Shown here: piece after piece, positions 5,192-62,328 of the stretch
Layout: each line of letters begins with the position of its first letter
Numbering within the stretch: the first letter of the stretch is position 1
Assembly: GCA_963763745.1 (NCBI GenBank)
Contig: CAVXQJ010000016.1
Location: 193,029-257,028, forward strand
Reading direction: 5' to 3'
Source: an uncultured delta proteobacterium
GTDB taxonomy: Bacteria > Myxococcota_A > Polyangia > Polyangiales > Polyangiaceae
Length of the DNA: 64,000 bases
Notes under the pieces: model-generated
Database searches by the model: none
Told to the model about the DNA's origin: nothing
What the model saw: the letters and a program-made list of their open reading frames with translations, nothing else
Translations under genes and position numbers: made by a program

Positions 5192-5228
5192 CAGCGCAGC
5201 GACGTTGATTTAGGTTGCCCGCACCCGG

Positions 5229-6498
5229 ATGCGGAAAACCCTCGGTCTCGCGCTCGCGCTCGCTCTTCTCTCGTGCTCGAACTCGAAGGCGACGAAGCCG
5301 ACCGTGGAGGCCGCGACGACGACGCCGCCCGTCGCGAGCTCCGCCGCGCAAGTCGAAGTGGACGCTTCGGCCGTCGTGGACGCCGCGCCGCCACCCGAGG
5401 TGCTCGCGGGCGGCGGATTTCGCGGCCCAAGCGAAGTCGCTCTTTCGCATCGCCGCATGCGGTGACGCGACGTCGCCAGTTCCCGAAGCGTTCGAAGCTC
5501 CCGTCGTCGACGGCCACTGCAAAGAGATGGCGTCGATGATTGCAGAATACAAGAAGTCGTGGTGCGACGTCGCGATGCCGTTCATCGCGAAGCTCGTCCC
5601 CGCCACCGCGCCGAAGACCGTCGTCTATCCGTTCGGCGGCGGCGATCTGCTCGGCGAGCTCGCGACGTATCCGAACGCGACCGAGGTGACGACGATCTCG
5701 CTCGAGATCGCCGCGGACGTTCGCAAGGTCGACGTGATCCCGAAGGGTCGTCTCCAACCCGAGCTCGCGCGCTATCGGATCGTCCTCGGCAAGCTCTTCG
5801 AAAAAGCCCACTCGCGCACCGACAACCTCGACATCGGATCGAAGAGCGTCTTGCCCGGCGAGATCGTCTTCGATCTCGTCGCGATGGTCGTGCATGGCTT
5901 CGAGCCCACGAGCCTGCGCTACTTCAAATTCAACGACGACGGCACGCTCCACTACTTCGAGCAATCCGAGATCGACGCAGCAGACGCCGCGGTGAAGGCC
6001 GGAAGAAAGACGCGCGCGGAGATCGACGACGCCTTCTTCTCGAACATGGAGCTTCGCTTCCGCAAAGTCGGAACGACCGAGACGCGCATCCTCCGGCATG
6101 TCGCGTTCAACCTCGACGACAACCACATGAAGGCGAACCCGCGCCTCGAAAAATATTTGAACGCGCGCGGCCCGAAGATCTCGCCGATGACGAAAGCCGC
6201 GAGCCACCTCCTCTGGTCGGACGATTTCTCGATCATCCGCAACTACCTCGCGACGCACATGGACTGGATGATCTCCGACTCGACCGGCTTCACGCCCGCG
6301 TACGCGAAGAAGATGGGATTCGTCCAAGACACGTACGGCACGTACACGTGGCCCGAGCCGTTCGGCACCGTCGACGTGAAGAACGCGACCGACTTGAACA
6401 AGCTCTTCGCGTCGAACCCGCACACGGACATCACGTTCCGCTACGGCTACCCCGACAAAGATCACCACGGCCACATCGTCGTCACGCGCAAGCCATGA
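5229..6498 (+). pseudogene. Lipoprotein with an apparent frameshift near 5400-5410 (sequencing error or authentic)
   Basis: The signal/lipobox ORF (MRKTLGLALALALLSCSNS, 5229..5465) runs into the protein-like tail of ORF 5215..6498 (…[17 protein letters not shown]…VVTRKP) in another frame. The stop overlaps the thyA start (ATGA). Confidence 0.5.
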
Positions 6499-9454: not shown

Positions 9455-10225
9455 TTACTTGGCGTGGAGCTCGCGCAGGCGCGCATCGGCGTTTGGGCGC
9501 ATGAGCGCGTCGGGGTGGTTCGCGACGAACGCGCGAAGAGCCTCGATCTCGCCCGGCCGATCTCCGAGCGCGCGCTTCGCTTCGGCGATGCCAAAGCGAG
9601 CTTCCTCGCTCAGCGATCCGTTCGGACGCTCGGCAATCGCGGCTTGGTAGAGGCGCAGCGCGCCGGCCGCATCGTGGAGGTGCTCGAGGCGAATCGACGC
9701 CGCGGCGACGCTCGCCGCGTACGCTTCGGAGCTGTGGGGCGAGCGCGACATCACGTGCTCGTAGGTGCTCTCGGCATCCGACCATTTGCGTTGCGTGCGC
9801 TGCTCGTTCGCCGTGCGGAGCAGGTCTGCGGGCAAGGCGGCTTCCTTCGCCGTGACGCTCGGAGCGGCGGTGACCGCAGGCTCCGGCTCCGACGTCGCGA
9901 CGACCGGCGGCGCCATGGCGCTCGTTTCAGCGATCGTCGCGACGGGCGTCGAGGGTTGCGAAGGTGGCGCGACCGGAGCTTCGGTCCGTGAACCGAAGAC
10001 GCGCGGCAAGAGCGCAGCGAACGCGGTGCCCATCGCGAGCGCGAGCGCCGCTGCGAGCGCGGCGATCCACAAGCGTCGCCTCGGTCGCAACCGGCGCACG
10101 TTCTTCTCTCGGTGCGCTTCATCGATGGCTGCCGCGATGATCGCAGCGCTTCGCTCGGTCGAAATCGGTGCCGCCGGACCAAGGCTTTCATCGAGCGGAA
10201 GCGCGAGATGATCCTCCGTGGTCAT
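9455..10225 (-). CDS. Anti-sigma factor (TM segment plus TPR-like C-terminal domain)
   Basis: ORF 9455..10225 overlaps the upstream ECF sigma gene by ATGA and has one TM helix (LWIAALAAALALAMGTAFAALL). Confidence 0.6.
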   Translation of the reverse strand: MTTEDHLALPLDESLGPAAPISTERSAAIIAAAIDEAHREKNVRRLRPRRRLWIAALAAALALAMGTAFAALLPRVFGSRTEAPVAPPSQPSTPVATIAETSAMAPPVVATSEPEPAVTAAPSVTAKEAALPADLLRTANEQRTQRKWSDAESTYEHVMSRSPHSSEAYAASVAAASIRLEHLHDAAGALRLYQAAIAERPNGSLSEEARFGIAEAKRALGDRPGEIEALRAFVANHPDALMRPNADARLRELHAK

Positions 10226-10743
10226 GACGACTCCTCGAGGCGCTCGCGCAACGCGACGCGACCGTTGCGCAGCCGGCTGCGTACGGTCTCGATCGGGACG
10301 CCCTGCTGATCGGCGATCTCGGGCACGCTCATCTCGAGGACATGATGCAGCACGAGAGCCTCGCGCATCTCTTGGGACAGCGTGTCGAGCGCACGTGCGA
10401 GGCGTCGGCGCGCGAGGTACTCGTCTTGCGAGCTGGCATGATCGACGAGCTCCACGTCGCTGGTCGTTCGCATCGCATCACTGCGCTTGCGTCGCGCTGC
10501 GTCGATCGCCACGCGCGCCACGATGCGGTCGCTCCATGAGGTGAGCTTCCCATCGCCGCGATACGTGTGCAAACCACGGACGATGGCCACGAGGCACTCC
10601 TGCACGGTGTCGTCGATGTCGTCGCCTCTCAAGAAATACCTCACGACGTTTCGAACGCGCGGCATGAGCTCGGTGAGCAGCGAGGTGGCCGCGACGCGAT
10701 CGCCGCGGATGGCCGCAGCCACACGAGGATCGATGCTGCTCAT
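10222..10743 (-). CDS. RNA polymerase ECF-type sigma-70 factor
   Basis: MSSIDPRVAAAIRGD…DTVQECLVAIVRGLHTYRG…LSQEMREALVLHHVLEMSVPEIADQQGVPIETVRSRL shows sigma regions 2 and 4. Confidence 0.85.
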   Translation of the reverse strand: MSSIDPRVAAAIRGDRVAATSLLTELMPRVRNVVRYFLRGDDIDDTVQECLVAIVRGLHTYRGDGKLTSWSDRIVARVAIDAARRKRSDAMRTTSDVELVDHASSQDEYLARRRLARALDTLSQEMREALVLHHVLEMSVPEIADQQGVPIETVRSRLRNGRVALRERLEESS

Positions 10744-17381: not shown

Positions 17382-19159
17382 CACGCGGCCTTCGCCGAAC
17401 GCGCACGTGCGCGCGGCGCGACCTTCTCGCCCGCGGGCAAGAACTGACCGAACTCCGCCTCGCGGCCGAGGGCGGGCTCGATCACGCCGTCGCGCGACGC
17501 GACGCGCCCGCCGACGAGCACCAGAGGCACCGCGCCATCGCTGCGGTTCACCATGCGCACGAGTCCGTCGAAGCCGTCCATCGGCGCCTCGTGATACGCG
17601 TCGAGTCGCGCGTCGAGCGCATCGGGATCGATCACGACGACGTCGGCGCGATCGCCGACGCGCAAGTGTCCCGCGTCGACCTCGAGCCAGTCTGCGATCT
17701 CGCCGGTGAGACGCCACACGGCTTTCTCGAGCGGCATGACCGACGGATCGTCTTTCACGAGCTTCAACATGCGGAGCGGGAAGCTGTAAAACGCCATGTT
17801 GCGAATGTGCGCGCCGGAGTCCGCGAAGCCGACGAGCGCGCACTTCTCGTTCACCATGCGTGCGACTTCGCTCTTGCGATGATTCGCGATGAGCGTGCGC
17901 CAGCGGAGCTTCGTTCCGTGCTCCACGACCAAATCGAGGAACGCATCGACGGGATGAATGCCGCGCTCGTCGGCGATTTGTCCGAAGGAGCGACCGACGA
18001 GCGCCTCGTCCGGGCACGCGACGACGAACGCATCGTGAAAATCGCGATGCCAGACGCGCGCGCTGCCCGTGCGTTCGTAGTCTTTGCGGAAGCGGCGGCG
18101 ATACGCGGGATCCTTCATGAGCTCGCTGCGCTCGATCTGTTCCACGAGATGGAGCAGCGCGCGTCCCGAGCCGAACTCCTCGAAGACGACGAGATCCACG
18201 CCGTCGGCGTACACCTCGAAAGGCACCGGCAGCGTTTGCCAGCGGAGGTCGCCGCCGAACGCAGCGTTCACGAAGCGCGTGAACCCGGCGATGATCCGGT
18301 GAAGCCCAGGCGACGACTTCGCGTCGGCGAGCGTGATGAGCGTCGTCTTGAGCGCGCTCGTGAACCACAGACCCGCGCTCGCGAACAAGAAGAGGAGCGC
18401 GTTGACCTTCGTCGTGATGTTCGGCGCGGACTGCAAGATGCGTTTGCGCTGGCGAAGCACGCGATGCATCCGGCGATACTCGCCCCACGTGGCGAACGTC
18501 GATGGCAGCGGCTTCGAGCGAAAACGATCGCCGTCGAGCTTGTCCCACGGATTCGTCATCGTCGAGAGACCGAGGAAGCCTTCGTCGAGCGCTTCCTCCA
18601 GCCACCGCTCCATCTCGCGCATCTCGGGCTCGGTGGGCCGAACCTTTTCGTCCACGGCGCGCTCGAGCCCGAGCACGCGCGTGCGCAAGTCGGAGTGCCC
18701 GAGGAACGACGTTCACGTTCGGGCCGAGCGGATGCGCGCGAAGAAATCCACGTACTCGCGCGGCGTCGACCACGTCTTCGTCTTCTCGAGGAGCGGCAGC
18801 ACGTGCGTGCGCGGAACCGCCTCGACGCGCGTGAAGAGATCCGAGCAGTCCTCCGGTTCGGCGAGCACCGCGCTGACCGAGCAGCTTCCGATGGTCACCG
18901 TCGTCACGCCGTGTCGCACCGATTCGCTCAGCGAAGGCGCGGCGATGAGCTCGGCGTCGTAGTGCGTGTGCATATCGAGAAAACCGGGCGTCACCCACTT
19001 CCCGTGCGCGTCGATGATCTCCGGACACCCCGCTTCGTCGAGCGGCTCGGCGCTCCAAGCGGCAACGCGCCCATCGCGAATGCCGACGTTCACGCGCTCG
19101 CCCGGCGCGCCGGTTCCGTCGAAGCAAAGACCGTTTTTGACGATGACGTCGAAGGGCAT
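17381..19159 (-). pseudogene. N-acyl-D-amino-acid deacylase (D-aminoacylase) interrupted by an in-frame TGA at 18713-18715
   Basis: ORFs 18713..19159 (N-terminal metal site DAHGKWVTPGFLDMHTHYD) and 17381..18688 are in the same frame. They are separated only by one TGA (…IRSART*TSFLGHSDLRTRVLG…). Confidence 0.8.
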
Positions 19160-19220
19160 GACGACGTCATAACATAGAGAGTGAACGCTCGCTATCTTTT
19201 CCTGGTGTAGTCTGACGGCG

Positions 19221-19937
19221 ATGGAGCGGATTCGGTCCTTGTGGGACGGCTACGGCGAGATCGTCCGCGATGGGGCGGTGATCGTCAAAACCGTGCGACC
19301 GCCTCCGGGCGCGCATCCGCGGAAGATTCGCTCGTACGAAGTCGAGCGGACGTTCTACGAAAAGTACGCGCCGCGCTGCGACGACGCGTGCCGTGTCGCG
19401 AAGCTCATCGAACGCCGCCCGAACGCTTTGGTGCTCGAAGATCTCGACGCGGCCGGTTTTCCAAAACGGGATGGCGACATCGAGCCGTGCCTCGCGTGGC
19501 TCGCGGCGTTTCACGCGCGCTTTCTCGGCGTCCGCCCCGACGGCCTTTGGAAGATCGGAACGTATTGGCATTTGGACACGCGACGCGAAGAGCTCGCCGC
19601 GATGCGCGACCGCGCGCTGCAGGCGCGCGCACCCGAGATCGATCGCGCGCTATGCGAAGCGAAGCACCAAACGATCGTCCACGGTGACGCGAAGCCCGAC
19701 AACTTCTGCTGGTCGCGCGATGGGACGCGCGTCGCCGCCGTCGATTTCCAATACGTAGGCGGCGGGCCCGGAATCAAAGACGTCGCGTACCTCCTTCACG
19801 GCGAACGCGACGAGGACGCGCGGCTCGAGACGTACTTCGAATGCCTCGCGAACGCAGAAGTCGAACGCGAGTGGCGCGCGCTCTATCCCGTCGCGCGCGA
19901 AGACTTTCGACGCTTCCTCGACGGATGGCGGCGGTGA
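19221..19937 (+). CDS. Phosphotransferase-family protein (APH/choline-kinase-like)
   Basis: Kinase-like fold with HGDAKPDNF and a DFQYVG motif. Confidence 0.75.
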   Translation: MERIRSLWDGYGEIVRDGAVIVKTVRPPPGAHPRKIRSYEVERTFYEKYAPRCDDACRVAKLIERRPNALVLEDLDAAGFPKRDGDIEPCLAWLAAFHARFLGVRPDGLWKIGTYWHLDTRREELAAMRDRALQARAPEIDRALCEAKHQTIVHGDAKPDNFCWSRDGTRVAAVDFQYVGGGPGIKDVAYLLHGERDEDARLETYFECLANAEVEREWRALYPVAREDFRRFLDGWRR

Positions 19938-25626: not shown

Positions 25627-28320
25627 TCAGCTCGCTTCGAGCGCGGCTTCGAGGAACGCGTCGATCTTTCCCGAGAGGACGCGCTTCACGTCGCCATCGG
25701 ACGCGCCCGTGCGGCGATCGCGGACGCCGCGCGAGTGGAGCTGATCGTACGTGCGGATCGGCGGCTCGTCGTCGCGCACGCGCTTCGTCGACATCGGCGC
25801 GCCGGGCGCTTTGACTTCGACGCGCGCGAGCCACGTGTCGCCGCGCTTGTCCTTGCCCTTCGGCGCCGCGATCAACCGGTGCCCGCCTTGTTCGCCTTTC
25901 AAATATCCGTACGCGTATGGGCCCTTCACGGTGATCGTCACGGTCTGCGCGTGCGCGGTCGTCTCGACGTCGTACTTTCGATCCTCGGCCCACGACGCGT
26001 ACATCTGCGCGAGCTCCTTCGCCCATGCGCTCGCGCCCTCTTTGCCGCCGACGGCGCGCACGACGAGCTCGGCGTCGCCGCGATCGGTGTCGTCGAAGTG
26101 GACGATCTCGCGTTCGGCGCGCGTGAGCGCGCGTTCGAGGCGCGCGTAGCGACCGACGAGATCATCGGCGGTGTCGCCGCGGGCGTTGCGCGGATCGACG
26201 AACGCGGCCTCGACGACCTCGCTCAGCAAATCGGTCCGCTGGCGCAAATCTTCGAGGCGCTTGATCTCCACGCTGAGCCGGTGGCGCTTGTACACGTCGC
26301 CGCCCTTGCCGAACGCTTCGTCCCAAAACGCCGGGCTCTTCGTCTTCTCTTCCATCGCCTCGAGCTCGCCGCGCATCGCAGCGACGTCGGCTTTTTCTTC
26401 GAGCTTCTCGATGCGCTCGTAGATGGACTTGAGCTCCGTCTTCACTTGCGCGAGCGACATGCGCACGACCTGTCCTTCGCCGTCGGTCGCGCGCGTGCGG
26501 CGCTCGAGGCTCTGGAGCTTGCGCGAGGTCTCGGTGTCTTCGAAGCTGAGTGACACGCCGTCGCCCTTTCGTGCCACACGGAGGAGCTGGTAGCGCTGCG
26601 CGGACGCGCCGAGCACCGCGCGCGCGAGCGGGAGAACGAGGAGCTCCTCGATCGCGCGCTTCAGCGGGCGCGCGCCGTACTTCGGATCGAAGCCGCGATC
26701 GAGGAGGAGATCGATGACGCCTTCGTCCACTTCGAGGAGGAGATCGCGCTCGAGCAATCCTTCGCGCCGATACACCTTGCCGAGCTCGCGCTGCGCGATC
26801 TTGCGCATGTCGCTCTTCTCGAGCGGCTCGAAGACGAGGATCTTGTCGATGCGGTTGAGAAACTCGGGGCGGTACGCGTGCTCGAGCGTGCGCCGCACGT
26901 CGCGGACGATGTTCGGCGAGCCGCCCTCCGCGCGACCGGAGAAACCAATCGACAATCCGAGCTCGCGCATGTTCGCGCCGACGTTCGACGTGAGGATGAT
27001 GAGCGTGTGGCGGAAGTCGACCGTGTCGCCGAACGCGTCGGTGAGGCGTCCGTCGTCGAAGACTTGGAGCATCAAGTCGGCGAGGTTCGGGTGGCCCTTC
27101 TCGAACTCGTCGAGCAAGACGACCGAGAATGGATTCTTGCGGACGTAGTCGGTGAGGAGCCCTGTCTTGTCCTGCTTCGGATCGCCGATGAGCTTCTCGA
27201 ACGAGTGAAAGTCTTTGTACTCGCTCACGTCGATGCGGAGCATCTTCGACGGGCTGCCGAAGAGAAACTCGGCGGTCGCCTTCGCGAGCTCCGTCTTGCC
27301 GACGCCCGTTGGACCGACGAAGAGCAAAACGCCCGCGGGCCAATCGGGATCGTTGAGGCCGGTCTTGTATAATGCAAGCAAATCGGCGACCGCGGAAACG
27401 GCTTCTTTTTGGCCCAAAACGCGCTCGGCGAGGAACTTGTGCATCTCCTCGTACGACATGCGCACAGTGGCCGAGAGCATGTGCATCGGGAGCGCGGTTT
27501 GTTTCGCGAAGACCTCCTCGACGAACGGCGCGTCGATGCGCGCCTTGTGGCCCGTGTCCGGCGCGCTCGCTTCTTGGACGACGCGCCGGAGGAGCTCGAC
27601 GCCTTTGCCGGGGAAGCTCTGCGTCGGAATGAATTTTTTCGCGAGCGAGAAGACGCGATCGATCGCTTGCTTTTCGAACGCGGGCGAGAGATCCGCCGCG
27701 ACGCGCACGAGCAGCTCGCGCGTCTCTTCTTCGGTGGGCTCGGGCACCGCGATGGCGACGAAATCGCGGACGAGGATCGGGTGCTCGCGCGCGAGCTTGT
27801 CCCAGCGGCCGGGTGTCACCTCGCCGAAGATGACGAGCTTGCCCTGTTCGATGCCGGGCCGCATGAGATCGTACACGCCGCGCGGGTTCGTGCTGTACGA
27901 GCCGGCGTACGGGAGGTTCCACACGTCGGGGATGTAGTGGAGGCGTTTTCGCGACGCGTGCGCGAGCATCGATCGGATGCGGCCTTCTTGTTGTCCCGTG
28001 AAGCGCGTGTCGGCGCAGAGACCGACCGTGGAGATTTCGTAAATCTTCGAGCCCGCGACTTCGGGGACGCGCCCGTCGCGCAGATACGAGAGGAGCTTTT
28101 GAACGACCGCGCTTTTTCCGACGCCGCTCGGGCCGACGAGCACAGCGCTTCGACCGCTCGCGAGCGTGCGCGCGAGCGCGTGCACTTCGGTTTGACGACC
28201 GAAGGTCTTCTCGCCGGTCGCATTGGGATCGGCGGAGAGCTCGCGCCCATCTTGCGCGACGACGTCGAAGTTGGCTTCAGTCACGGGAGAGCGTCGAAAG
28301 ATAGCATTTGCGCCGTGCAC
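25627..28320 (-). CDS. ClpA/ClpC-like double-AAA+ ATPase fused to an RF2-like domain-2/C-terminal module lacking the GGQ domain
   Basis: Walker A motifs GPSGVGKS and GPTGVGKT. D2 has LLDEFEKGH, RPEFLNRIDKILVFEPL and GARPLKRAIEE. An SIGF loop sits at the ClpA IGL position. The C-terminus aligns with the RF2 PCRF region and tail (YAYGYLKGEQGGHRLIAAPKGKDKRGDTW…; IRTYDQLHSRGVRDRRTG…IDAFLEAALEA). GTG start. Confidence 0.85.
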   Translation of the reverse strand: MHGANAIFRRSPVTEANFDVVAQDGRELSADPNATGEKTFGRQTEVHALARTLASGRSAVLVGPSGVGKSAVVQKLLSYLRDGRVPEVAGSKIYEISTVGLCADTRFTGQQEGRIRSMLAHASRKRLHYIPDVWNLPYAGSYSTNPRGVYDLMRPGIEQGKLVIFGEVTPGRWDKLAREHPILVRDFVAIAVPEPTEEETRELLVRVAADLSPAFEKQAIDRVFSLAKKFIPTQSFPGKGVELLRRVVQEASAPDTGHKARIDAPFVEEVFAKQTALPMHMLSATVRMSYEEMHKFLAERVLGQKEAVSAVADLLALYKTGLNDPDWPAGVLLFVGPTGVGKTELAKATAEFLFGSPSKMLRIDVSEYKDFHSFEKLIGDPKQDKTGLLTDYVRKNPFSVVLLDEFEKGHPNLADLMLQVFDDGRLTDAFGDTVDFRHTLIILTSNVGANMRELGLSIGFSGRAEGGSPNIVRDVRRTLEHAYRPEFLNRIDKILVFEPLEKSDMRKIAQRELGKVYRREGLLERDLLLEVDEGVIDLLLDRGFDPKYGARPLKRAIEELLVLPLARAVLGASAQRYQLLRVARKGDGVSLSFEDTETSRKLQSLERRTRATDGEGQVVRMSLAQVKTELKSIYERIEKLEEKADVAAMRGELEAMEEKTKSPAFWDEAFGKGGDVYKRHRLSVEIKRLEDLRQRTDLLSEVVEAAFVDPRNARGDTADDLVGRYARLERALTRAEREIVHFDDTDRGDAELVVRAVGGKEGASAWAKELAQMYASWAEDRKYDVETTAHAQTVTITVKGPYAYGYLKGEQGGHRLIAAPKGKDKRGDTWLARVEVKAPGAPMSTKRVRDDEPPIRTYDQLHSRGVRDRRTGASDGDVKRVLSGKIDAFLEAALEAS

Positions 28321-28382
28321 GACGCGCTGGGCCCAACGCCGGGATCGTCGAAGATCGTGTAGGATCGGCGGAAGGGTGGGCG

Positions 28383-29067
28383 ATGGAACGAGCGTCGACG
28401 TTGATGATGGCCGGGCTCCTCACGACGGCCAGCGGGTGCTCGAAGAGTGGCGAGCCCGGTGATCTTTGTGGCCGACTGGCAAAAGCGGGTGCTGCGACGA
28501 GCTGCAGCACGCCGCCCAATCAAGACAAAAGCCTGCAGTTTGCGACGTTCACCGAGTCGGGCAACACGCATCACAAGGGCGTCATTGTTCGTTATCGCGA
28601 CGAACCAGACTATCGCAAGGCCAAGCAGTTCGAGGACGAGCACAAGGCGGCAGCGGCGCTGATCGAGCGCGTCTACGTCAAAGACGATGCTCACGTGGTC
28701 GTGACACTCGAAGGCAGCGGCGGACAAGATCGCCAAGACGCTCGACATGACGGTGCTCGTCGGTTCCCCAACGACCAACGTCGCACCCGCGGAGCTCGGC
28801 AAGTATCTATTCGCGAGCAAGGGGTGCGCGGTGTGTCACTCGGTTGATGGCACCAAGTCAACCGGACCAACACTCAAGGGCGTATTCGGGAAACCCGTCT
28901 TGCTCGCCTCGGGCGAGAGTGTCGTGGCAGACGAAGCGTACGTTCGCGAGTCGATCCTGCAGCCAAACGCGAAGGTCGTCCTCGGTTTTCCGCCGATACA
29001 GCCCCCATATGAACTTCCGGAAGTCGAGATCGCCGGCCTCGTCGCATACGTCGAGTCACTTCAATGA
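28383..29067 (+). pseudogene. Lipoprotein with a C-terminal class-I cytochrome c domain, apparent frameshift near 28715-28725
   Basis: MERASTLMMAGLLTTASGCS (lipobox) ORF in frame 0. The CAVCH haem-binding ORF (28747..29067) is in frame +1 and has no signal peptide of its own. Confidence 0.55.
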
Positions 29068-32838: not shown

Positions 32839-33639
32839 TCACGCCGCGGCTTTGAGCTCCGAGCTGCGAATCTCCGTGTAGACGGGCGGCGCATCGAGGT
32901 CGAGGCGCGCGCGAACTTCTTCGACCGGCAGCGCGAGCATCGATTCCCAATCTTGCTCGGGGAGCCACTGCGCTTTGCGACCGCGACGGAAGCCGTCGAC
33001 GATCGTCTTTCGCGCGGCCGCACCGCCGAGCTCCGCGGTGATCGTCTTGCTGAGACCGATGGCGATGATCAAACCGATTGCGGGGTTCTACGTTTGCGCG
33101 AACGTGAACGCGAGCAGCGCCGTCTCGCCGAGCACGTCGCCGGAATATCCGACGGCCGCGTGCCAGAGATCGTGCGTGTCGCGCATGCGCGCGTGGACCC
33201 AATCGAGCGGGGCGGGGAGGAGCTCCGCTTCCTGGCGGAATCCTTTTTTCTGCGCGTCGCGAATGCCTTCAGCGGAGATGTTCTCGCGCTCGACGAACGC
33301 GAGATACGCGCGGCCGAGCGATCCCTCGGGCAAGCGCGCGAGCGCTTTGCGATCGGCGAGCACGGAGACGATGTCGGCGCGGGCAGCCAGCATCTTTTTT
33401 CCGGATGCGCTCTTTTGAAGCCGTTCACCGATGCGCTCGAGCGTGTTGCCGCTCAGCGATTCGATGATGGTGAAGACCTGCGGCAAATCGTCGGGGTCGG
33501 CGGCAAGGATACGTGCGGCGCGAAGGGCCCGTTTGGGCTCGAATTGAATCGTGCGAACAGCACGATTCGATGACTCTTGCTGGGAAGCGCGGCGCCCGCC
33601 GCGCGTTCCCATTTGTACGTGGCTCATGCCCAAGAACAA
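32839..33639 (-). pseudogene. Coq4-family protein (HDxxH-x11-E zinc motif) interrupted by an in-frame TAG at 33088-33090
   Basis: ORFs 33088..33639 (…RMRDTHDLWHAAVGYSGDVLGET…) and 32839..33072 are in the same frame and contiguous except for one TAG (…FAQT*NPAIGLIIAIG…). Confidence 0.75.
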
Positions 33640-33702
33640 TGGACGCTACCTACAGGATTGTCAATAGCTGCTGACAGGTTTGTTCGTAGGCGGCGATGTG
33701 CG

Positions 33703-35839: not shown

Positions 35840-36025
35840 CGCGCCATCTTGTGCTAACGTTTCATCGATGTCGACGTTCGCCTACGCCCGCTATCAGTAT
35901 TCGTATTACGCATTGCGGGCGTAGCTGGAGTCGCACATCTGATCGACGAGGCCGCCCGGGAGGTGGCCTCGTTTCGTTTTGTGCGCGGCGCATCTCCAGA
36001 GCGGTTCTCGAAAAGGAGAACCGAG

Positions 36026-36694
36026 ATGCACACGAAAGAAGAAAACGCGCTCTGGGCGATGCTTCGCGCCGAGCTCGAGCCGCTTCACGCGCGAAGCGCG
36101 TGCCGTGCGATACGCGACACGCACGTCGCGCTCCCACGCGATCGCATTCCATCGCTCGAAGAGGTCACGGCGCTCGTCCGGCCGCACACGGGATTCGTCT
36201 TGCGTCCCGTCGACGGGCTCGTTCCGTCGCGCGAGTTCCTCGGCGCGCTCGCGCATGGAGTCTTCTCGAGCACGACGACAATTCGCGACGCGCGCACGCC
36301 GCACTACACGCCCGAGCCCGACGTCGTGCACGAGTTCATCGGACACGCCGCGTCGCTCGCGCATCCGGAGATCGCGGAGCTCAATCGCATGATCGGGCGC
36401 GCTGCGCAGGGTTGCGACGACGATGCGCTCGTCGCGCTCGAACGTTTCTACTGGTTCACGCTCGAGTTCGGATTGATCGAAGAAGACGGCGAGCCCAAGG
36501 CGCTCGGCGCGGGGCTGCTGTCGTCGGTCGCGGAGATGAAGCGCTTCGCGCACGTCACGCTGCGCCCATTTCATCGGGACGAAATCACGGCGACGCCTTT
36601 CTCGACGACCGCCATGCAAGACGTGCTCTTCGTCGCGCCATCGCTCGACGCGATCATTTCGTCGTTCGGGCGTGTTAAAGAGATCGCAGCATGA
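36026..36694 (+). CDS. phhA: Phenylalanine 4-monooxygenase (aromatic amino acid hydroxylase)
   Basis: [19 protein letters not shown]…[27 protein letters not shown] matches the pterin-dependent hydroxylase catalytic core. RBS aaaggaga lies upstream. Confidence 0.85.
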
Positions 36695-38373
36695 CGGAGA
36701 CCATCCCGGCAATTTCGTCGAAGACATCGTCAAAGACGATCTCGCGAGCGGCAAACATGGCGGTCGCGTGATGACGCGATTCCCGCCCGAGCCGAACGGC
36801 TATCTCCACATCGGCCACGCGAAATCGATTTGCTTGAACTTCGGTCTCGCGGCGCTCTCGCCCACGGGAAATGCAATTTGCGCTTCGATGACACGAATCC
36901 CGTCGCCGAAGACGTCGAGTACGTCGAGTCGATCAAGAACGACGTGCGCTGGCTCGGGTTCGATTGGGAAGATCGCGAGTACTACGCGTCGGATTATTTC
37001 CCGAAGCTCTACGAGCTCGCCGAGGCGATCGATCAAAAAGGTTTGGCCTACGTCGACAGCCAAACCGAAGAGCAGATTCGCGATGGCCGCGGCAGCTTCC
37101 ACGAGCCCGGGCGCGATTCGCCGTTTCGCAATCGCCCCATCTCCGAGAATCTCGATTTGCTTCGTCGCATGAAGAGCGGCGAGTTCAAGGATGGCGAGCA
37201 CGTCCTCCGCGCGAAGATCGACATGGAGTCGACCGACGTGAAAATGCGCGATCCTCTCATGTATCGCATTCGCCACGCGCACCATCACCGCACGGGCGAC
37301 ACGTGGTGCATCTATCCGATGTACGATTTTGCGCACGGCTTTCGGACGCCATCGAAGGCGTGACGCACTCGGTGTGCACGCTCGAGTTCGTCAACCATCG
37401 GCCGCTCTATCACTGGTTCATCGACGCCGCGGCGACGGAGAATCACCCGCAGCAGATCGAGTTCGCCAAGCTAATCATCACGTACATGCTCTTCTCGAAG
37501 CGAAAGCTAAGCCAGCTCGTGGAGGAGAAGCACGTGAGCGGCTGGGACGATCCACGCATGCCGACGCTCGCGGGGTTGAGGCGTCGCGGCGTCACACCGA
37601 GCGCGCTCCGCGAATTTTGCGATCGCGTCGGCGTGTCCACGCGCGACAGCGTCGTCGACATCGTCGCTCCTCGAGCATACGCTGCGCGAAGATCTCAACG
37701 CGACGTCGCCGCGCGTGATGGCGGTTTTGCGCCCATTCGAAATCGAAATCGAGAATTGGCCCGAAGGCAAAGTCGAATGGATCGAAGCGCCATACGACCC
37801 GGAAAAACCCGACGGGCCGAAGCGCAAGGTGCCTTTCTCGCGACGCGTTTTCATCGAGCGCGAAGACTTCATGGAGGATCCGCCGAAGAAATTCTCCGTC
37901 TCTCCCCCGGCGCGGAAGTTCGTTTGCGTTGGGCGACGATCATCAAGTGCAAAGAGGTCGTCAGGAACGGGCGCGGCGAAATCGATAAGGCTCGTTTGCA
38001 CCTATGACCCCGAACGCGACGGGCGGTCAACCGAAGGACGGCCGCAAGATCAAAGGCACGATCCACTGGGTCTCGGCGGATCACGCGAAAGACGCGGAAG
38101 TGCGTTTGTACGATCGCCTCTTCAAAGACGAAAACCCCACGCACACGGAGAACTTCCTCGACTCGCTCAATCCGAATTCGCTCGAGACGCGGGAGCATTG
38201 CAAAGTAGAGCCGAGCCTCGAGATCGGCCCAAGCGCTCGAGCGATTCCAATTCGAGCGACTCGGCTACTTCTGCGTCGACCCCGACTCGACGCCCGCGAA
38301 GCTCGTTTTCAACCGGACGATCACGTTGAAGGACACGTGGGGCGTGCTGGTTCAAAAAGGGAAGGCGGACTGA
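36691..38373 (+). pseudogene. glnS: Glutamine--tRNA ligase with at least 8 single-nt frameshifts
   Basis: GlnRS-homologous segments alternate between frames: MTETIP | NFVEDIV…[13 protein letters not shown] | [13 protein letters not shown]…YPMYDFAHG | [17 protein letters not shown]… | …EDLNATSPRVMAVLRPFEIE… | …EVRLRWATIIKCKE… | …CTYDPE… | …[18 protein letters not shown]… | …[12 protein letters not shown]…. The shifts fall at short G/C or A runs. Confidence 0.85.
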
Positions 38374-38375
38374 GC

Positions 38376-39626
38376 GTGCTCCGGGGGCTATCGTGGTTTC
38401 GCGATGACACGCCACGCGCGCGCGACGCTGCGTTCTGTCGTCGCATGCTTCCGCAGGTCTCGCGCACGTTCGCGCTCTCGATCGCGATGCTGCCGCCCAC
38501 GCTGCGCGATGCAGTCGGCGACGCGTATTTGATTTGCCGCATCGTCGACAGCATCGAAGACGACGCGCGTCTATCGCACTCCGAACGGCTCGCGCTCTTC
38601 GACGCGTTCGATTCGGTGATCGCCGACGACGCGCTCGACGAACGCGTGCTCGAGCGCGCTGCGCGCAAAGCGGCGGTGGGCGAAACGGCCGCCGAGAGCG
38701 AGCTCTGCGCGCGATCGGGTGCGGTGATGCGAGCGTTTCGCGCGCTCGATCGATCGCAACGCGAAGCGATTCGTCCGCACGTCCTCGAGATGTCGCGCGG
38801 CATGCGCGAGTACGCGGCGCGCGCCGCGCGCGACGGACGATTGCGCATCGCGGACGTCGCCGATCTCGAGCGGTATTGTTACTTCGTCGCCGGCACCGTC
38901 GGCGAGCTGCTCACGGATTTGTTCGCGCTCGAGGTCCCCGGGATCGACGCGCGGACGCTCGCGGAGCTGCGCCGGCTCGCGGTTCCTTTCGGCATCGGCC
39001 TCCAGCTCGTGAACATCGTGAAAGACGTCGCGGGCGATCTCGAGCGCGGCGTGTGCTTCTTGCCCGCGAGCCTCGCCGCGCGCGAAGGCGTCGCGCTCGA
39101 GGAACTGCTCGAGCCCGCGCGTCGTGCCAAGGCGATGCGCGTCGTCGAGTCGGTGTGCGATCTCGCAGAAGAAAAGCTACGCGACGCGCAGACGTACACG
39201 CTCGCATGGCCCCGAGAGCGCGCGCACGCCATTCGTCTTTTTTGCTCCGTGCCGCTCGTTCTCGCGCTCGCATCGCTTCGCGTGGTGCGCGACGGCACGC
39301 GCGCGCTCGTCCGCGACACGACGCCCAAGGTCGGTCGCGTCGAGCTGTTCACCATCGTGCGCGACGTGCTCGCGTCCATCGACGACGATCGCGCTCTTGC
39401 CGGTCTCTTTGCTCGTCACGCGAGCTACCGAGCCGCACCACGATACCGGCAACGCGGACTGCGGAGCCTTCTCCTGCGGCGGTTCCTCGCGCGCGGCGGC
39501 ATTCCGGCTGCGCGCGTTCAGACGCGGATCTGGCTCGCGTGGGATCGCGTGCGCGAACGCGCGCGCGAGGCGCGTCGGATCATCGACGCGCTGAATCTCA
39601 ATAGCTCACGGAGTAGGGGATGGTGA
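38376..39626 (+). CDS. Squalene/phytoene synthase family protein (HpnC/HpnD/CrtB-like)
   Basis: …[35 protein letters not shown]… and [14 protein letters not shown] are family motifs. Start uncertain (GTG at about 38376 or ATG at 38448). Confidence 0.8.
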
Positions 39627-44644: not shown

Positions 44645-46185
44645 GTGGAGGAAGTTATGGCTGCGATGCGCGCGCGCAACGCGCGTGAGTTCGATGACCT
44701 CGTGATCGGCGCCGGAATGGGCGGCCTCACCGTCGGCGCGCTGCTCGCCGCGCAAGGCCGGCGCGTTCTCGTCGTGGAGGCGCACGATGTGCCGGGCGGC
44801 TACGCGCACACGTTCGAGGTCGGCAAGTACCGCTTCTGCGCGCAAGTGCATTACATCTTCGGCTGCGGCGAAGGCGAGCCCGTTCACGAGCTCCTCCGGC
44901 GCACCGGTCTCGACGAGCGCGTGCGCTTCCACCGGCTCGATCCCGAAGGCTTCGATCACGTCGTCGTCGCCGGCAATCGTTACCGCATACCGAACGGTCT
45001 CGAAAATTCCGCGACGGGCTCATTCGTGCATTCCCGCACGCGGGCGATCCGATCCGCGGATACTTCGACGTCGTGATGGCGATCGGCCGCGAGCTCGACA
45101 AGCTCCCCGAAATCGATCGGCTTGCGCGATCTCCTGACGGCTCCTTTTCGGTTTTCGCATTTGCTTCGTTACAAGAGTTGGACGCTCGGTCGCTTGTACG
45201 AGTCGCTCCGCATGCCGCCGCGTCTGCGAACGATCCTCGCGGGGCAGTCGGGCGATTACCTGCTCCCACCGAGCGAAGTGTCGCTCTTGCTCCACGTCGC
45301 GCTCGTGCGCGCCTACGATCGCGGCGCCTACTATCCCGAAAAGCACTACGTGCATTTCATCGACAGCATCGCGTCGTACTTGCGATCGCGCCCGGGATGC
45401 GAGCTCCTGCTCGAGACCGAGGTCGAGTCGATCCTCAGCGACGGCAAGCGCGTCACGGGCGTACGCACCAAGCGCGGGGAGACCTTCACGGCGCGCGCGC
45501 TACATCTCGAACGTCGACCCGCATCGCACCGCGAGCCTCCTCGGCGCGCGGCGCTGGGCAGCGGAAGCTCTCGTACGAATACTCCTCGGGCAACATCACG
45601 CTCTACTTGGGTATTCGCGACATCGACTTACGCGATTACGGCTTTGGCTCGTACAACGTTTGGCATTATCCGCACGACGACATCGACGCGATGTACCGGC
45701 GCCAGCGCGACGCGCGCGATTTCCGCGAGCCGTGGCTGTTCATGTCGACGCCCACGCTCCACACGACGCACCCGGGCTTGTGCCCAGAGGGGCACCAAAT
45801 CCTCGAGCTCGCGACGAGCGCGGACCACGCGTGGTTCAAGGCGCTCCGCGATCGCGACCGCCGAGCCTACAACGCCGAGAAAAAGCGGCTTCGCGAGCGA
45901 ATGATCGCCGTCGTCGAACGACACTACGTTCCCAAGCTGAGCAAGCACCTCGCGATGCAGGTGATGGGAACGCCCGCCACCAACGAGCGCTTCTGCAACG
46001 CGCCATTCGGCAACGCATATGGATCGGCGCTCACGCCCGAGAACGTGAGCCGTCGCGTTCCGAGCGCGACCCCGCTCCGCAACTTGTGGCTCGTCAATGC
46101 GACGGCGGGATTCCCGAGCATCGGCGGAACCGTGAAGGCGGGTATCGATCTCGTCGATGGCCCGCTGCGCGCACTCGGTGCATGA
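44645..46185 (+). pseudogene. NAD(P)/FAD-dependent oxidoreductase, phytoene-desaturase (CrtI) family, 3 frameshifts
   Basis: VIGAGMGGLTVGALLA Rossmann N-terminus in frame 2. Later segments alternate between frames 1, 2 and 1 (ORFs 44645..45076, 45073.., 45122..45904, tail to 46185). Total about 513 aa. Confidence 0.75.
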
Positions 46186-60030: not shown

Positions 60031-60997
60031 TCGCCCTCCGCGAGCTCGGCCCAACCAGGAAGTGGCGACCCGCGCTGAGCTCGTCGAGCATGCATTGCAT
60101 CCGCGCCTCCACTTCGCGGTAGCAGCGGTCGAGCACGGTTGGGTTGTCGGCATCGCTCGGGCCGAGGTCGGGCCACGACATCGGCGCGCCGAACGCGAGC
60201 GAGGCTTGCGCGGGGAGGGGAAGATACGGAACGAAACCGGACGTGAGTCCCCACGGAAACGAGAGCACGATCGGAAGGACTTCGGTGCGCGCCCACGCGT
60301 GCGCGTGGAGAAGGCGAGCGAGCTTGTCGCCGCGCGAGAGAACGATGAGCTGCTCGTGCGCGCCCGCGGTGACGACGGGGACGATGGGTACGCGCTCGCG
60401 CAGCGCGAGCTTGAGAAATCCTTTGCGGCCGCCGAGCACCACGCGGTTGCGATCGCGGAACGTGCGAAACGTATCGAGGTCGGATCCGGGATAGACGATG
60501 ACGCACGCGCCGACGGCGAACGCGTGATGCGCGCTCTCGTGCTTCGCTCGCAGCATTCCGAGTCGCGCGGCGTATCGGCGGAGGAGCGGATCTTCGAAGA
60601 TGAAGTCGTGCGCGAGCGCGTAGACCGCGCGCGTCACGCCGTAGCGCTCGTAGATGGCGAGCGCGGTGAAGAAGCCTTCGCTCGGAAGCAACCCGCCATT
60701 GTGGTTCCCCACGAGAAGAACGGGGCCCGTCTCCGGCACGTTCTCGACGCCCGATACGCGCAACCGAAAATAATATTTCGCGAGCACGCGATAGAGGTCG
60801 AGCAGTGCCTCGACCAGCTCGGGATCGCGCGCTCGAACGTCGTCGGCGCTCGAGCTGCCCGCGCGCCCGGCGTGCCTCGCGAGCGCGAAACGCGCGAAGC
60901 GCGCGACGAGACGCGGTGGCGAGAGAAGAACGCGCCGATCCTCGCGCGGAATGACGCGCCGCGCGCGACGGACCCAGTCGATCGTCTCGGAGAGCAT
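60023..60997 (-). CDS. Lysophospholipid acyltransferase (PlsC superfamily)
   Basis: Real 324-aa tail of the artefactual ORF 60023..61954 (…VPETGPVLLVGNHNGGLLPS…VPIVPVVTAGAH…). It overlaps the downstream membrane gene. Confidence 0.75.
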   Translation of the reverse strand: MLSETIDWVRRARRVIPREDRRVLLSPPRLVARFARFALARHAGRAGSSSADDVRARDPELVEALLDLYRVLAKYYFRLRVSGVENVPETGPVLLVGNHNGGLLPSEGFFTALAIYERYGVTRAVYALAHDFIFEDPLLRRYAARLGMLRAKHESAHHAFAVGACVIVYPGSDLDTFRTFRDRNRVVLGGRKGFLKLALRERVPIVPVVTAGAHEQLIVLSRGDKLARLLHAHAWARTEVLPIVLSFPWGLTSGFVPYLPLPAQASLAFGAPMSWPDLGPSDADNPTVLDRCYREVEARMQCMLDELSAGRHFLVGPSSRRANA

Positions 60998-61066
60998 CGC
61001 GCTGGACGTTGCATTGTGCGCGCCACGGTCGCGTCTGCACCGTTTGCAGGTTGGACGCGCGGCACG

Positions 61067-62328
61067 ATGAGTGCAGCGCGTTTCGGCATGGCGAACACGA
61101 ATCGACTCGGGGCCGAGGACACCGCGTGGCTTCACATGGAAGACGCGACCAACCCGATGGTGGTCAACGCGCTGTTCGAGCTCGGCGGCACGCTCGACGT
61201 CGCACGCTTGTGGTCGCTCGTCGAAACGCGCTCGCTTCCGCCGCGCTTTCGCGCGCGCGTGGTCGAAGCGCATCGCCCGTTTGCGCTTCCGCGTCTCGAG
61301 ACCGATCCGGCTTTCGATTTCGGCCAGCACATCGTTCACGTCGAGCTCGAGCCGGGCGAAGACGCGCTGCGCGCGTTCGTCGATCGGCAAGTGAGCTCGC
61401 TGCTCCCGCGCGACCGACCGCTGTGGTGCACGTTCGTGATCGATCGCGTCGGCGCGCCGACGTGCTTGCTGTTCCGCGTGCACCACTCGCTCGCGGATGG
61501 ATTCGCGTTGCTCGGTCAGCTCCGTTTGCTCTGCGACGAGCACGAGCACGTCGCGCCGCCTCCAGCGACGAAGGGCACCCGCGAGGGTGGCGTGCTGCGG
61601 CAGAGCGCAGCGCTCGCTCGGCTCGTCACGCTGCCGAGCGATCCGCACACCGTGTTCAAGCATTCGCTCGGCGAAGAGAAGCGCGTCGCGTGGTCGCGCC
61701 CGATTCCCATCAGCACCGTCAAGGCGATCGCTCGCGGCGCGTTTGCAACGGTCAACGACGTGATGGTCTCCGCGGTCGCGAGCGCGCTCGGACGACAGCT
61801 CACGATGCGCGGCGGTGACGGCGCACAAGACGTCAGCGCGATGGTGCCCGTGAATCTCCGACCGACGGAAGAGAATCCGACGTCCGGAAATCAATTCGGC
61901 CTGATCCTTCTCTCGCTTCCCGTTGGAGAGATGAGCGCCACGTCGCGTTTGCACGAAGTGAAGTGGCGCATGGATCGGATAAGAAGACGCCCGAAGCGTT
62001 CGTCGCGTTCGATTTGCTCGGCGCGATGGGACACATGCCGACGCGACTCGAGAACCTCGGCGTCGCGTTCTTCGGCAAGAAGGCGTCGCTCGTGCTCACG
62101 AACGTTCCCGGTCCGCGCGAGCGGCTCCACCTCGGCGGCGTTCCGATCGAGCGCATCGTGTTCTGGGCGCCGCAAGCCGGCCGCATGGGGCTCGGCATCA
62201 GCATCTTCAGCTACGCGGGCGAGGTCACCGTCGGCGTCATCGCGGACACGCTCGTCGTGCCGCGGCCCGAGGAGCTCATCGCCGCAGTCGACGCGGAGCT
62301 CGCCGCGCTCGTCTCTACGACGTCATAA
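61067..62328 (+). pseudogene. Wax ester synthase/diacylglycerol acyltransferase (WS/DGAT) with a frameshift near 61975
   Basis: HHSLADG active-site motif in frame 2. The C-terminal LTNVPGP…SYAGEV… segment continues in ORF 61963..62328 (frame 1). Confidence 0.75.

What the first reader, a model, noticed from the sequence alone, without database searches (positions are those of the whole stretch)
36691..38373. glnS carries at least eight single-nucleotide frameshifts while strongly resembling GlnRS in every segment
The phhA stop and the glnS ATG overlap (ATGA).

Each segment is a good GlnRS match: HIGH ([13 protein letters not shown]), [39 protein letters not shown], and anticodon-binding blocks down to [12 protein letters not shown]. 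But the reading frame switches in the order 1,0,2,1,2,1,2,0,1.

The breakpoints fall at short homopolymers (ccggg, cccacggg, ataagaag-type runs).

Aconitase (2.6 kb), glyS and the 2.7-kb AAA gene are all intact, so the errors are not uniform across the window. Two explanations fit: a low-coverage, homopolymer-error-prone stretch of the assembly, or a decaying glnS in a genome that charges Gln-tRNA through GatCAB.
Basis: seen in the sequence. Interest (0 to 1): 0.6.

Follow-up and report, generated by a model that had tools for sequence, protein, structure and literature searches.

The report
glnS broken by assembly indel errors
The glutaminyl-tRNA synthetase gene really is interrupted by eight one-base frameshifts, but the evidence indicates consensus errors in an indel-prone metagenome assembly, not a gene the organism is losing.

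Summary
glnS (36691-38373, +) carries exactly eight single-base indels that three intact orthologs lack: four deletions and four insertions, net zero.

The "decaying gene" reading fails. Correcting the eight bases gives a 560-codon ORF with no stop. It scores 727 bits against the NCBIfam glnS equivalog (cut-off 426). dN/dS against intact orthologs is 0.125-0.127, and those orthologs give 0.109-0.177 among themselves. Lineage-private amino-acid changes number 16, against 16, 16 and 24 in the orthologs. Only 2 of 372 highly conserved columns differ.

glnS is also not the only broken gene. An FAD oxidoreductase (44657-46185) has four private 1-bp indels and the same selection signature. A D-aminoacylase-like gene, a WS/DGAT gene and two lipoprotein genes also shift frame, and a Coq4-like gene has an in-frame TAG.

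All 14 base-resolved indels are exactly 1 bp, with no deletion bias, mostly in short runs. The source is a 607-kb metagenome-type contig. Best explanation: local clusters of consensus errors. This is an artefact of low interest.

The parts
36691..38373 (+). glnS (glutamine--tRNA ligase) coding region as assembled, interrupted by eight 1-bp indels. ATG at 36691 and TGA at 38371-38373 are in the same frame because the indels sum to zero.
   Evidence: The repaired 560-aa product scores TIGR00440 glnS 726.8 bits (cut-off 425.8) and hits PF00749, PF03950 and PF20974 at full length.
36691..36694 (+). ATGA overlap of the phhA stop (TGA 36692-36694) with the glnS start (ATG 36691-36693).
   Evidence: sequence. 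The same 4-bp overlap of the Biopterin_H gene and glnS occurs in relative L003.
36705..36709 (+). Indel 1: 1-bp deletion (CCCGGG in orthologs, CCCGG here), frame 1 to 0.
36862..36871 (+). Indel 2: 1-bp deletion (orthologs GACCGGAAAATG, window CACGGGAAATG), frame 0 to 2.
37336..37340 (+). Indel 3: 1-bp deletion (CACGGCCTC in orthologs, CACGGCTTT here), frame 2 to 1.
37660..37664 (+). Indel 4: 1-bp insertion (GACATCGTCG against GACGT-GTCG), frame 1 to 2. Not in a homopolymer.
37892..37896 (+). Indel 5: 1-bp deletion (TTCTTC in orthologs, TTCTC here), frame 2 to 1.
37983..37990 (+). Indel 6: 1-bp insertion near ATCGATAAGGCTC, frame 1 to 2. The exact inserted base is ambiguous.
38012..38014 (+). 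Indel 7: 1-bp insertion (CCCGAACGC against CCCG-ACGC), frame 2 to 0.
38222..38224 (+). Indel 8: 1-bp insertion (GAGATCGG against GAG-TCGG), frame 0 to 1.
35963..36694 (+). phhA (phenylalanine 4-monooxygenase-like, Biopterin_H), intact, directly upstream. The start codon is not fixed.
38376..39626 (+). Squalene/phytoene-synthase-family gene, intact, directly downstream. Because of the glnS frame errors, a gene caller fused it with the glnS tail into a 540-aa chimera (38004-39626).
   Evidence: PF00494 positions 2-261 of 263; the 540-aa chimera is in the protein collection
44657..46185 (+). Second multiply frameshifted gene, an NAD(P)/FAD-dependent oxidoreductase (amine-oxidase/CrtI-like). It has four private 1-bp indels: deletion at 45003, insertions at 45105, 45493 and 45556.

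Best explanation
The organism, an uncultured Polyangia-type myxobacterium, most likely has an ordinary, intact and functional glnS, translationally coupled to phhA through an ATGA overlap. The eight frameshifts are single-base insertion/deletion errors in the assembled consensus, not mutations.

The contig (607,100 bp, metagenome-type, deposited in NCBI and ENA) behaves like an indel-prone long-read assembly. Most of it is clean, but short stretches carry dense 1-bp indels. Such stretches would be expected where depth was low or polishing failed, perhaps because of strain mixture. glnS is the densest such stretch in this window, with about 1 indel per 190 bp over 1.5 kb.

Shown here:
- the eight indels and their positions;
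- a selection signature unchanged from intact orthologs;
- the same lesion type in other genes of the window.

Inferred: the sequencing platform, and the local cause of the clustering.
For: (1) Removing or adding eight single bases restores a 560-codon ORF with no internal stop. It passes the NCBIfam glnS equivalog at full length and all three Pfam GlnRS domains.

(2) There is no relaxation of selection.
- dN/dS of the repaired gene against three intact orthologs is 0.125-0.127. The orthologs give 0.109-0.177 among themselves.
- Lineage-private amino-acid changes number 16, against 16, 16 and 24 for the orthologs.
- Only 2 conservative changes occur at 372 columns conserved at 95% or more in 120 homologs. 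Intact homologs show 0-5.
- From general knowledge of bacterial pseudogenes (not measured here), substitutions outnumber indels several-fold to more than tenfold. Eight neutral indels should therefore come with tens of extra, mostly nonsynonymous, substitutions and some stops. None is seen.

(3) The indel spectrum is error-like. All 14 base-resolved indels are exactly 1 bp: glnS 8, oxidoreductase 4, amidohydrolase 2. They split 8 insertions to 6 deletions, opposite to the deletional bias and broad size range of real bacterial indels. Most lie in 2-4-base runs.

(4) glnS is not unique in the window.
- The FAD oxidoreductase 44657-46185 has four private 1-bp indels. Once repaired it is 84% identical over 97% of the query to intact 497-aa homologs, with dN/dS 0.13 and 1 change at 177 conserved columns.
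- A D-aminoacylase-like gene has a -1/+1 pair about 27 nt apart. The repaired HPLGPNVNVFLGHSDLR segment aligns to PDB 3gip and 1m7j.
- The WS/DGAT C-domain is split between frames, covering profile positions 2-39 and 34-144.
- Two lipoprotein genes change frame near 5400 and 28715.

(5) All relatives sampled keep glnS intact and in the same neighbourhood: phhA-glnS, the thioredoxin-like gene, the AAA gene and glyS.

(6) Indel-caused gene fragmentation in nanopore assemblies and MAGs, especially below about 40x coverage, is a documented problem (PMC9262707, read; PMC12007338, title and abstract as listed).
Against: - No reads, depth or quality values are available, so the error cannot be demonstrated directly.
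- The sequencing platform is inferred, not known. The source record could not be retrieved.
- The clustering is extreme. Eight of at least 17 indels lie in 1.5 kb, while the 14 kb upstream and the 1.25-kb gene downstream are clean.
- The cluster lies within the boundaries of one gene, which is also what gene-specific loss of selection would produce.
- Two of the eight sites are not in homopolymers.
Confidence: 0.86

Rival explanations
1. Genuine, very recent pseudogenisation of glnS. The lineage would make Gln-tRNA(Gln) through a non-discriminating GluRS plus GatCAB, so glnS became dispensable and is accumulating frameshifts.
For: All eight lesions lie inside the glnS coding region, and the flanking phhA and squalene-synthase-like genes are intact. 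The transamidation route is widespread in bacteria (general knowledge), so loss of glnS is biologically possible.
Against: - dN/dS, private amino-acid changes and conserved-site changes cannot be told apart from intact orthologs.
- No stop codon remains after repair.
- All lesions are 1 bp, with equal numbers of insertions and deletions.
- Identical lesions hit unrelated genes, which also still look selected.
- All sampled relatives keep glnS under omega of about 0.12.
- No gatCAB or gltX was seen in the window. The rest of the genome could not be examined.
Confidence: 0.06
2. A special case of the artefact. The clusters mark places where reads from co-occurring strains or close species were collapsed, so the consensus or polishing step produced indels locally rather than simply suffering from low depth.
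For: The errors are strongly clustered: 8 in 1.5 kb and 4 in 0.55 kb, against long clean stretches. The samples that yielded the closest relatives contain several related Polyangia genomes; two different contigs of sample ERZ25039548 carry homologs.
Against: It is not testable without reads. Other equally or more conserved genes nearby are clean, for example the AAA gene with 89% amino-acid identity to its ortholog. Cross-mapping onto conserved genes is therefore not a sufficient cause.
Confidence: 0.3
3. The frameshifts are real but are bypassed during expression, by programmed ribosomal frameshifting or transcriptional slippage, so that functional GlnRS is still made.
For: Nothing specific. 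The indels sum to zero, so the first and last segments share a frame.
Against: - Eight independent recoding events in one gene have no precedent.
- The sites share no slippery heptamer or long A/T tract. Runs are 1-4 bases, and slippage rescue as known from endosymbionts needs long poly-A tracts (general knowledge).
- Orthologs have none of these indels.
- Unrelated genes carry the same lesions.
Confidence: 0.01

Closest known systems
Bacterial glutaminyl-tRNA synthetase (GlnRS, class Ib aaRS; NCBIfam TIGR00440, Pfam PF00749/PF03950/PF20974)
   Same: After repair the gene matches at full length. The HIGH motif (HIGHAKS), the MSK-type second motif (LFSKRK) and both anticodon-binding domains are present. 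It is 86% identical to intact Polyangia-type GlnRS.
   Different: As assembled it is split over three frames by eight 1-bp indels. It lacks the C-terminal YqeY extension of the NF011291 fusion model, matching profile positions 13-558 of 769, as do its 560-565-aa relatives.
Indel-induced gene fragmentation in long-read (nanopore or PacBio CLR) assemblies and MAGs (the IDEEL-type problem)
   Same: Single-base insertions and deletions, mostly in short runs, break otherwise conserved genes into adjacent ORFs. Several genes per 64 kb are affected, on a large metagenome-type contig. The problem is described in PMC9262707 and PMC12007338.
   Different: The platform and depth of this assembly are unknown. 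The density in glnS, about 0.5% over 1.5 kb, is far above the window average of roughly 0.03%.
True bacterial pseudogenes in decaying genomes (for example Mycobacterium leprae or recent host-restricted lineages)
   Same: There are multiple frameshifts in a recognisable gene.
   Different: Real decay brings excess nonsynonymous substitutions, stop codons, multi-base deletions and a deletion bias (general knowledge). None of these is present here.

Membership tests
GlnRS (glutamine--tRNA ligase, TIGR00440) | Full-length match above the curated equivalog cut-off, and a better match than to the GluRS models | tested here: met
   The repaired protein scores TIGR00440 726.8 bits (cut-off 425.8) over profile positions 1-522 of 524. 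The GluRS models score at most 314 bits, below their cut-offs.
GlnRS (glutamine--tRNA ligase, TIGR00440) | Class I catalytic domain with HIGH and KMSKS-type motifs, plus two anticodon-binding beta-barrel domains | tested here: met
   HIGHAKS and LFSKRK are present. PF00749 covers positions 2-312 of 314, PF03950 covers 1-91 of 91 and PF20974 covers 1-69 of 69.
GlnRS (glutamine--tRNA ligase, TIGR00440) | A single uninterrupted reading frame encoding the enzyme | tested here: not met
   As assembled, eight 1-bp indels split the gene over three frames. The feature is met only after repair.
Decaying pseudogene | Relaxed selection on the lineage: raised dN/dS and changes at conserved sites | tested here: not met
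   Omega is 0.125-0.127 against 0.109-0.177 among intact orthologs. There are 16 private amino-acid changes against 16, 16 and 24, and 2 changes at 372 conserved columns.
Decaying pseudogene | A mutational spectrum of real indels: mixed sizes and a deletion bias, accompanied by nonsense substitutions | tested here: not met
   All eight indels are 1 bp, four insertions and four deletions, and no stop remains after repair.
Decaying pseudogene | A compensating pathway in the genome (gatCAB plus a non-discriminating GluRS) | not testable with these tools
   Only the 64-kb window is available and the source contig could not be fetched. No gatCAB or gltX lies in the window.
Assembly or consensus indel artefact | The same lesion type in unrelated genes of the same contig, each still showing purifying selection | tested here: met
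   The oxidoreductase has 4 indels with omega 0.13. The amidohydrolase has a -1/+1 pair. WS/DGAT is split between frames. Two lipoprotein genes shift frame.
Assembly or consensus indel artefact | Raw reads or an independent assembly restore the frame | not testable with these tools
   No reads are available. No same-species sequence was found: the best glnS hit is 86% identical, the window's proteins are singletons, and a species-specific degenerate pattern found nothing in metagenome contigs.

The most novel reading that the evidence does not exclude
The eight frameshifts are real. A Polyangia lineage would have just lost GlnRS and would now rely entirely on GatCAB transamidation. It would have been caught so early that no substitutions have accumulated, perhaps through an unusual mutational process that produces only 1-bp indels and also hits other dispensable genes.
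Probability: 0.05. Interest if true: 0.45.

Novelty: not a real feature. Interest (0 to 1): 0.08.

Why it matters
The main value is as a caution. Taken at face value, the sequence would be annotated as loss of an aminoacyl-tRNA synthetase, would feed wrong inferences about tRNA-charging pathways, and would count against the completeness of the genome. It has already produced at least one chimeric protein in public collections: the 540-aa fusion of the glnS tail with the squalene-synthase-like gene. The window shows that indel errors in such assemblies can be strongly clustered, so a few intact long genes nearby do not vouch for a neighbouring gene. If the frameshifts were real, this would be a snapshot of very recent GlnRS loss, which would be of moderate interest.

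Tried and rejected
1. The genome-contig scan with the repaired protein was saturated by the universal [12 protein letters not shown] motif.

2. Retrieving the source contig by exact protein look-up failed four times, although five window proteins are in the protein collection as singletons from one 607,100-bp contig. The sample, platform and remainder of the genome therefore stayed unknown.

3. A degenerate DNA pattern for the window-specific peptide [15 protein letters not shown] found nothing in metagenome contigs. A second scan was judged pointless because the singleton clusters already indicate that no same-species sequence is held.

4. The GC3 frame plot alone was too noisy at 65% GC. It was replaced by a codon-model Viterbi scan followed by homology checks.

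5. A motif search around 12 indel sites gave only a weak association with GAAA-type A-runs (p about 0.02 and 0.006 within the two genes, uncorrected). No methylation-like motif emerged, and TCGA was not enriched.

6. The amidohydrolase of L084 turned out to be an unrelated paralog. PDB D-aminoacylases were used instead.

7. Programmed frameshifting or slippage was considered and rejected, because there are no slippery sites or long tracts and unrelated genes are affected.

8. The ECF-sigma-like ORF 10225-10741, where only region 4 was detected, and the APH-like ORF 19185-19934, which gave a partial profile match, were noted as possible further casualties but not pursued.

Full report
**1. What is in the sequence**

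The region 36691-38373 on the + strand encodes recognisable GlnRS peptide in all three forward frames. No single ORF covers it. The tool lists fragments 36672-37172, 36830-37363, 36964-38007, 37715-38329 and 38004-39626. These fragments hit consecutive parts of the same Pfam profiles: PF00749 positions 2-30, 33-191 and 189-297, then PF03950 positions 4-57.

A conceptual join of the pieces finds 8000 GlnRS proteins. The best, from Polyangiaceae-type metagenome contigs, are 560-565 aa, 86% identical and cover 100% of the query.

I fetched the DNA of three of these intact orthologs (L001, L002, L003) and aligned it with the window. Parsing the alignment gives exactly eight single-base indels private to the window.

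| Type | Positions |
|---|---|
| Deletion after | 36707, 36864, 37338, 37894 |
| Insertion at | 37662, 37985, 38013, 38223 |

The only other length difference is an in-frame 9-base block that L003 also lacks. The indels sum to zero, so the ATG at 36691 and the TGA at 38371 share a frame. The ATGA overlap with the phhA stop is real, and L003 has the same overlap.

**2. Is the gene decaying?**

I repaired the eight positions and obtained a 1683-base ORF of 560 codons with no internal stop.

- **Family membership.** The product passes the NCBIfam glnS equivalog TIGR00440 with 726.8 bits (cut-off 425.8) over profile positions 1-522 of 524. The GluRS models stay below their cut-offs. All three Pfam domains are matched essentially end to end.
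- **Conserved sites.** Across 372 alignment columns conserved at 95% or more in 120 homologs, the window differs at two, both conservative (L to F, K to R). One of these depends on which base I removed at indel 6. Fifteen intact homologs treated the same way differ at 0-5 columns.
- **dN/dS (Nei-Gojobori).** The repaired gene gives 0.126, 0.127 and 0.125 against the three orthologs. The orthologs give 0.109-0.177 among themselves.
- **Private changes (four-taxon parsimony).** The window has 16 private amino-acid changes and 29 private synonymous changes. The orthologs have 16/44, 16/24 and 24/43.

So there is no detectable excess of substitutions on the window's lineage. From general knowledge of bacterial pseudogenes, substitutions outnumber indels several-fold to more than tenfold, real indels vary in size, and they are biased toward deletion. 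Eight neutral indels should therefore come with tens of extra, mostly nonsynonymous, changes and a few stops. Instead, all eight lesions are 1 bp, four of each sign, with nothing else. This argues strongly against decay.

**3. Is glnS unique in the window?**

It is not. A codon-usage Viterbi scan over six frames flagged same-strand frame changes that do not coincide with stop codons. Follow-up gave these cases:

- **NAD(P)/FAD oxidoreductase, 44657-46185 (+).** Its first ORF carries only positions 1-95 of 443 of PF01593, and the rest continues in alternating frames. The joined protein finds intact homologs of about 497 aa at 84% identity and 97% coverage. DNA alignment with L084 shows four private 1-bp indels: a deletion at 45003 and insertions at 45105, 45493 and 45556. 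The repaired ORF has 508 codons and no stop, dN/dS is 0.13, and 1 of 177 conserved columns is changed, like intact homologs.
- **D-aminoacylase-like gene on the minus strand, 17384 to about 19160.** It has an in-frame TGA at 18713-18715. Another frame reads HPLGPNVN across it. A -1/+1 repair gives ...FFARHPLGPNVNVFLGHSDLR..., which aligns to N-acyl-D-glutamate deacylase 3gip and D-aminoacylase 1m7j. Pfam Amidohydro_3 positions 1-54 and 352-470 fall on the two sides.
- **WS/DGAT gene.** It changes frame near 61985. PF06974 positions 2-39 lie in one frame and 34-144 in the other.
- **Lipoprotein gene.** It starts with MRKTLGLALALALLSCS at 5229 and continues in the frame of ORF 5209-6498 from about 5400. 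The ortholog in L001 is 423 aa, matching the length expected from the ATG at 5229.
- **Lipoprotein with a cytochrome c domain.** It is probably split near 28715.
- **Coq4-like gene on the minus strand.** It has an in-frame TAG at 33088-33090 inside a Pfam Coq4 match, positions 62-221 of 221.

In contrast, aconitase, glyS, the AAA protein, the thioredoxin-like gene, phhA, the squalene-synthase-like gene, gpsA and others are intact. The window therefore has at least 17 single-base indels in about 60 genes, strongly clustered. Eight lie in 1.5 kb of glnS and four in 0.55 kb of the oxidoreductase. With 17 events spread evenly over 64 kb, eight in one 1.7-kb gene has a probability of order 1e-8 (my calculation).

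**4. What the source is**

- Five window proteins are present as singleton clusters from one contig of 607,100 bp held by NCBI and ENA.
- The collection also holds the 540-aa chimera 38004-39626, which fuses the glnS tail frame with the downstream gene. That shows the deposited sequence carries these frameshifts.
- The contig itself could not be fetched.
- No same-species sequence was found.
- Closest relatives come from metagenome assemblies with contigs of hundreds of kb to Mb named contig_N, for example sample ERZ25039548. By inference that is the long-read assembly style.
- Indels that fragment genes in nanopore assemblies and MAGs, particularly below about 40-fold coverage, are well documented (PMC9262707; PMC12007338).
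- Around the 12 indels mapped against an ortholog's DNA there is only a weak excess of short A-runs. Most sites are in 2-4-base runs and two are not.

**5. Interpretation**

The best explanation, at about 0.86, is that glnS is intact in the organism and the eight frameshifts are consensus errors concentrated in a poorly supported stretch. That stretch may reflect low depth or a strain mixture. The sub-cause cannot be resolved without reads.

Genuine recent loss of glnS with reliance on GatCAB remains possible at about 0.05. It would need an indel-only process that leaves no substitutions and also strikes unrelated genes that still look selected. Recoding or slippage is effectively excluded.

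**6. Comparison and novelty**

The gene is a standard bacterial GlnRS once repaired. The defining feature "one uninterrupted frame" is not met as assembled, so membership rests on the repair. The phenomenon belongs to the known class of indel-induced gene fragmentation in error-prone assemblies. It is not a biological feature, and interest is low. Its practical value is as a warning for annotation and for pathway inference from this genome.

Noticed in passing
window 44657-46185 (+): An NAD(P)/FAD-dependent oxidoreductase (amine-oxidase/CrtI-like, called 'all-trans-retinol 13,14-reductase' by JGI) is broken by four private 1-bp indels at 45003, 45105, 45493 and 45556. Once repaired it is 84% identical to intact 497-aa homologs, with dN/dS 0.13.
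   Followed up: yes
window 17384-19160 (-), lesion at about 18700-18735: A D-aminoacylase-like amidohydrolase has an in-frame TGA (18713-18715) caused by a -1/+1 indel pair about 27 nt apart. The repaired segment HPLGPNVNVFLGHSDLR aligns to PDB 3gip and 1m7j.
   Followed up: yes
window about 60800-62328 (+), shift near 61985: A wax-ester synthase/DGAT gene changes frame inside its C-terminal domain. PF06974 positions 2-39 lie in one frame and 34-144 in another.
   Followed up: partly
window 5229-6498 (+), shift near 5400: A lipoprotein gene has its signal peptide (MRKTLGLALALALLSCS) in one frame and its conserved body in another (87.6% identity to the L001 ortholog). One 1-bp insertion is implied.
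   Followed up: partly
window 28305-29067 (+), shift near 28715: A lipoprotein N-terminal part and a cytochrome c domain (PF00034) sit in overlapping ORFs of different frames. This is probably one gene with a frameshift, but it is not proven.
   Followed up: partly
window 33088-33090 (-), gene about 32840-33650: A Coq4-family gene has an in-frame TAG (FAQT*NPAIG) in the middle of the Pfam Coq4 match. It is either a substitution-type error or a real nonsense mutation, and it is the only non-indel lesion seen.
   Followed up: partly
window 38004-39626 (+): A 540-aa chimeric protein, made of the out-of-frame glnS tail fused to the squalene/phytoene-synthase-family gene, exists as a singleton in the public protein collection. 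It is an annotation artefact propagated from this assembly.
   Followed up: yes
window 8.3-21.8 kb compared with L001: In relative L001, thyA-folA is followed directly by the PEP-utilizer gene, glyS, the AAA gene, the thioredoxin-like gene and glnS. The window has about 13.5 kb of extra genes between folA and that block, including a Ser/Thr kinase with a GAF domain, an ECF-type sigma, TetR and AraC regulators, the amidohydrolase and an MscS-like channel.
   Followed up: no
window 36691-38373 compared with its flanks: glnS has a lower G+C content (59.8%) than its neighbours (64.6-68.3%) and the window mean (65.4%). There is a weak association of indel sites with GAAA-type A-runs.
   Followed up: partly
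L084 1238-2707: The related long contig from ERZ25039548 shows short gene fragments (a 120-aa aminotransferase piece and a 126-aa PALP piece). This suggests that similar gene fragmentation occurs in assemblies of relatives.
   Followed up: no
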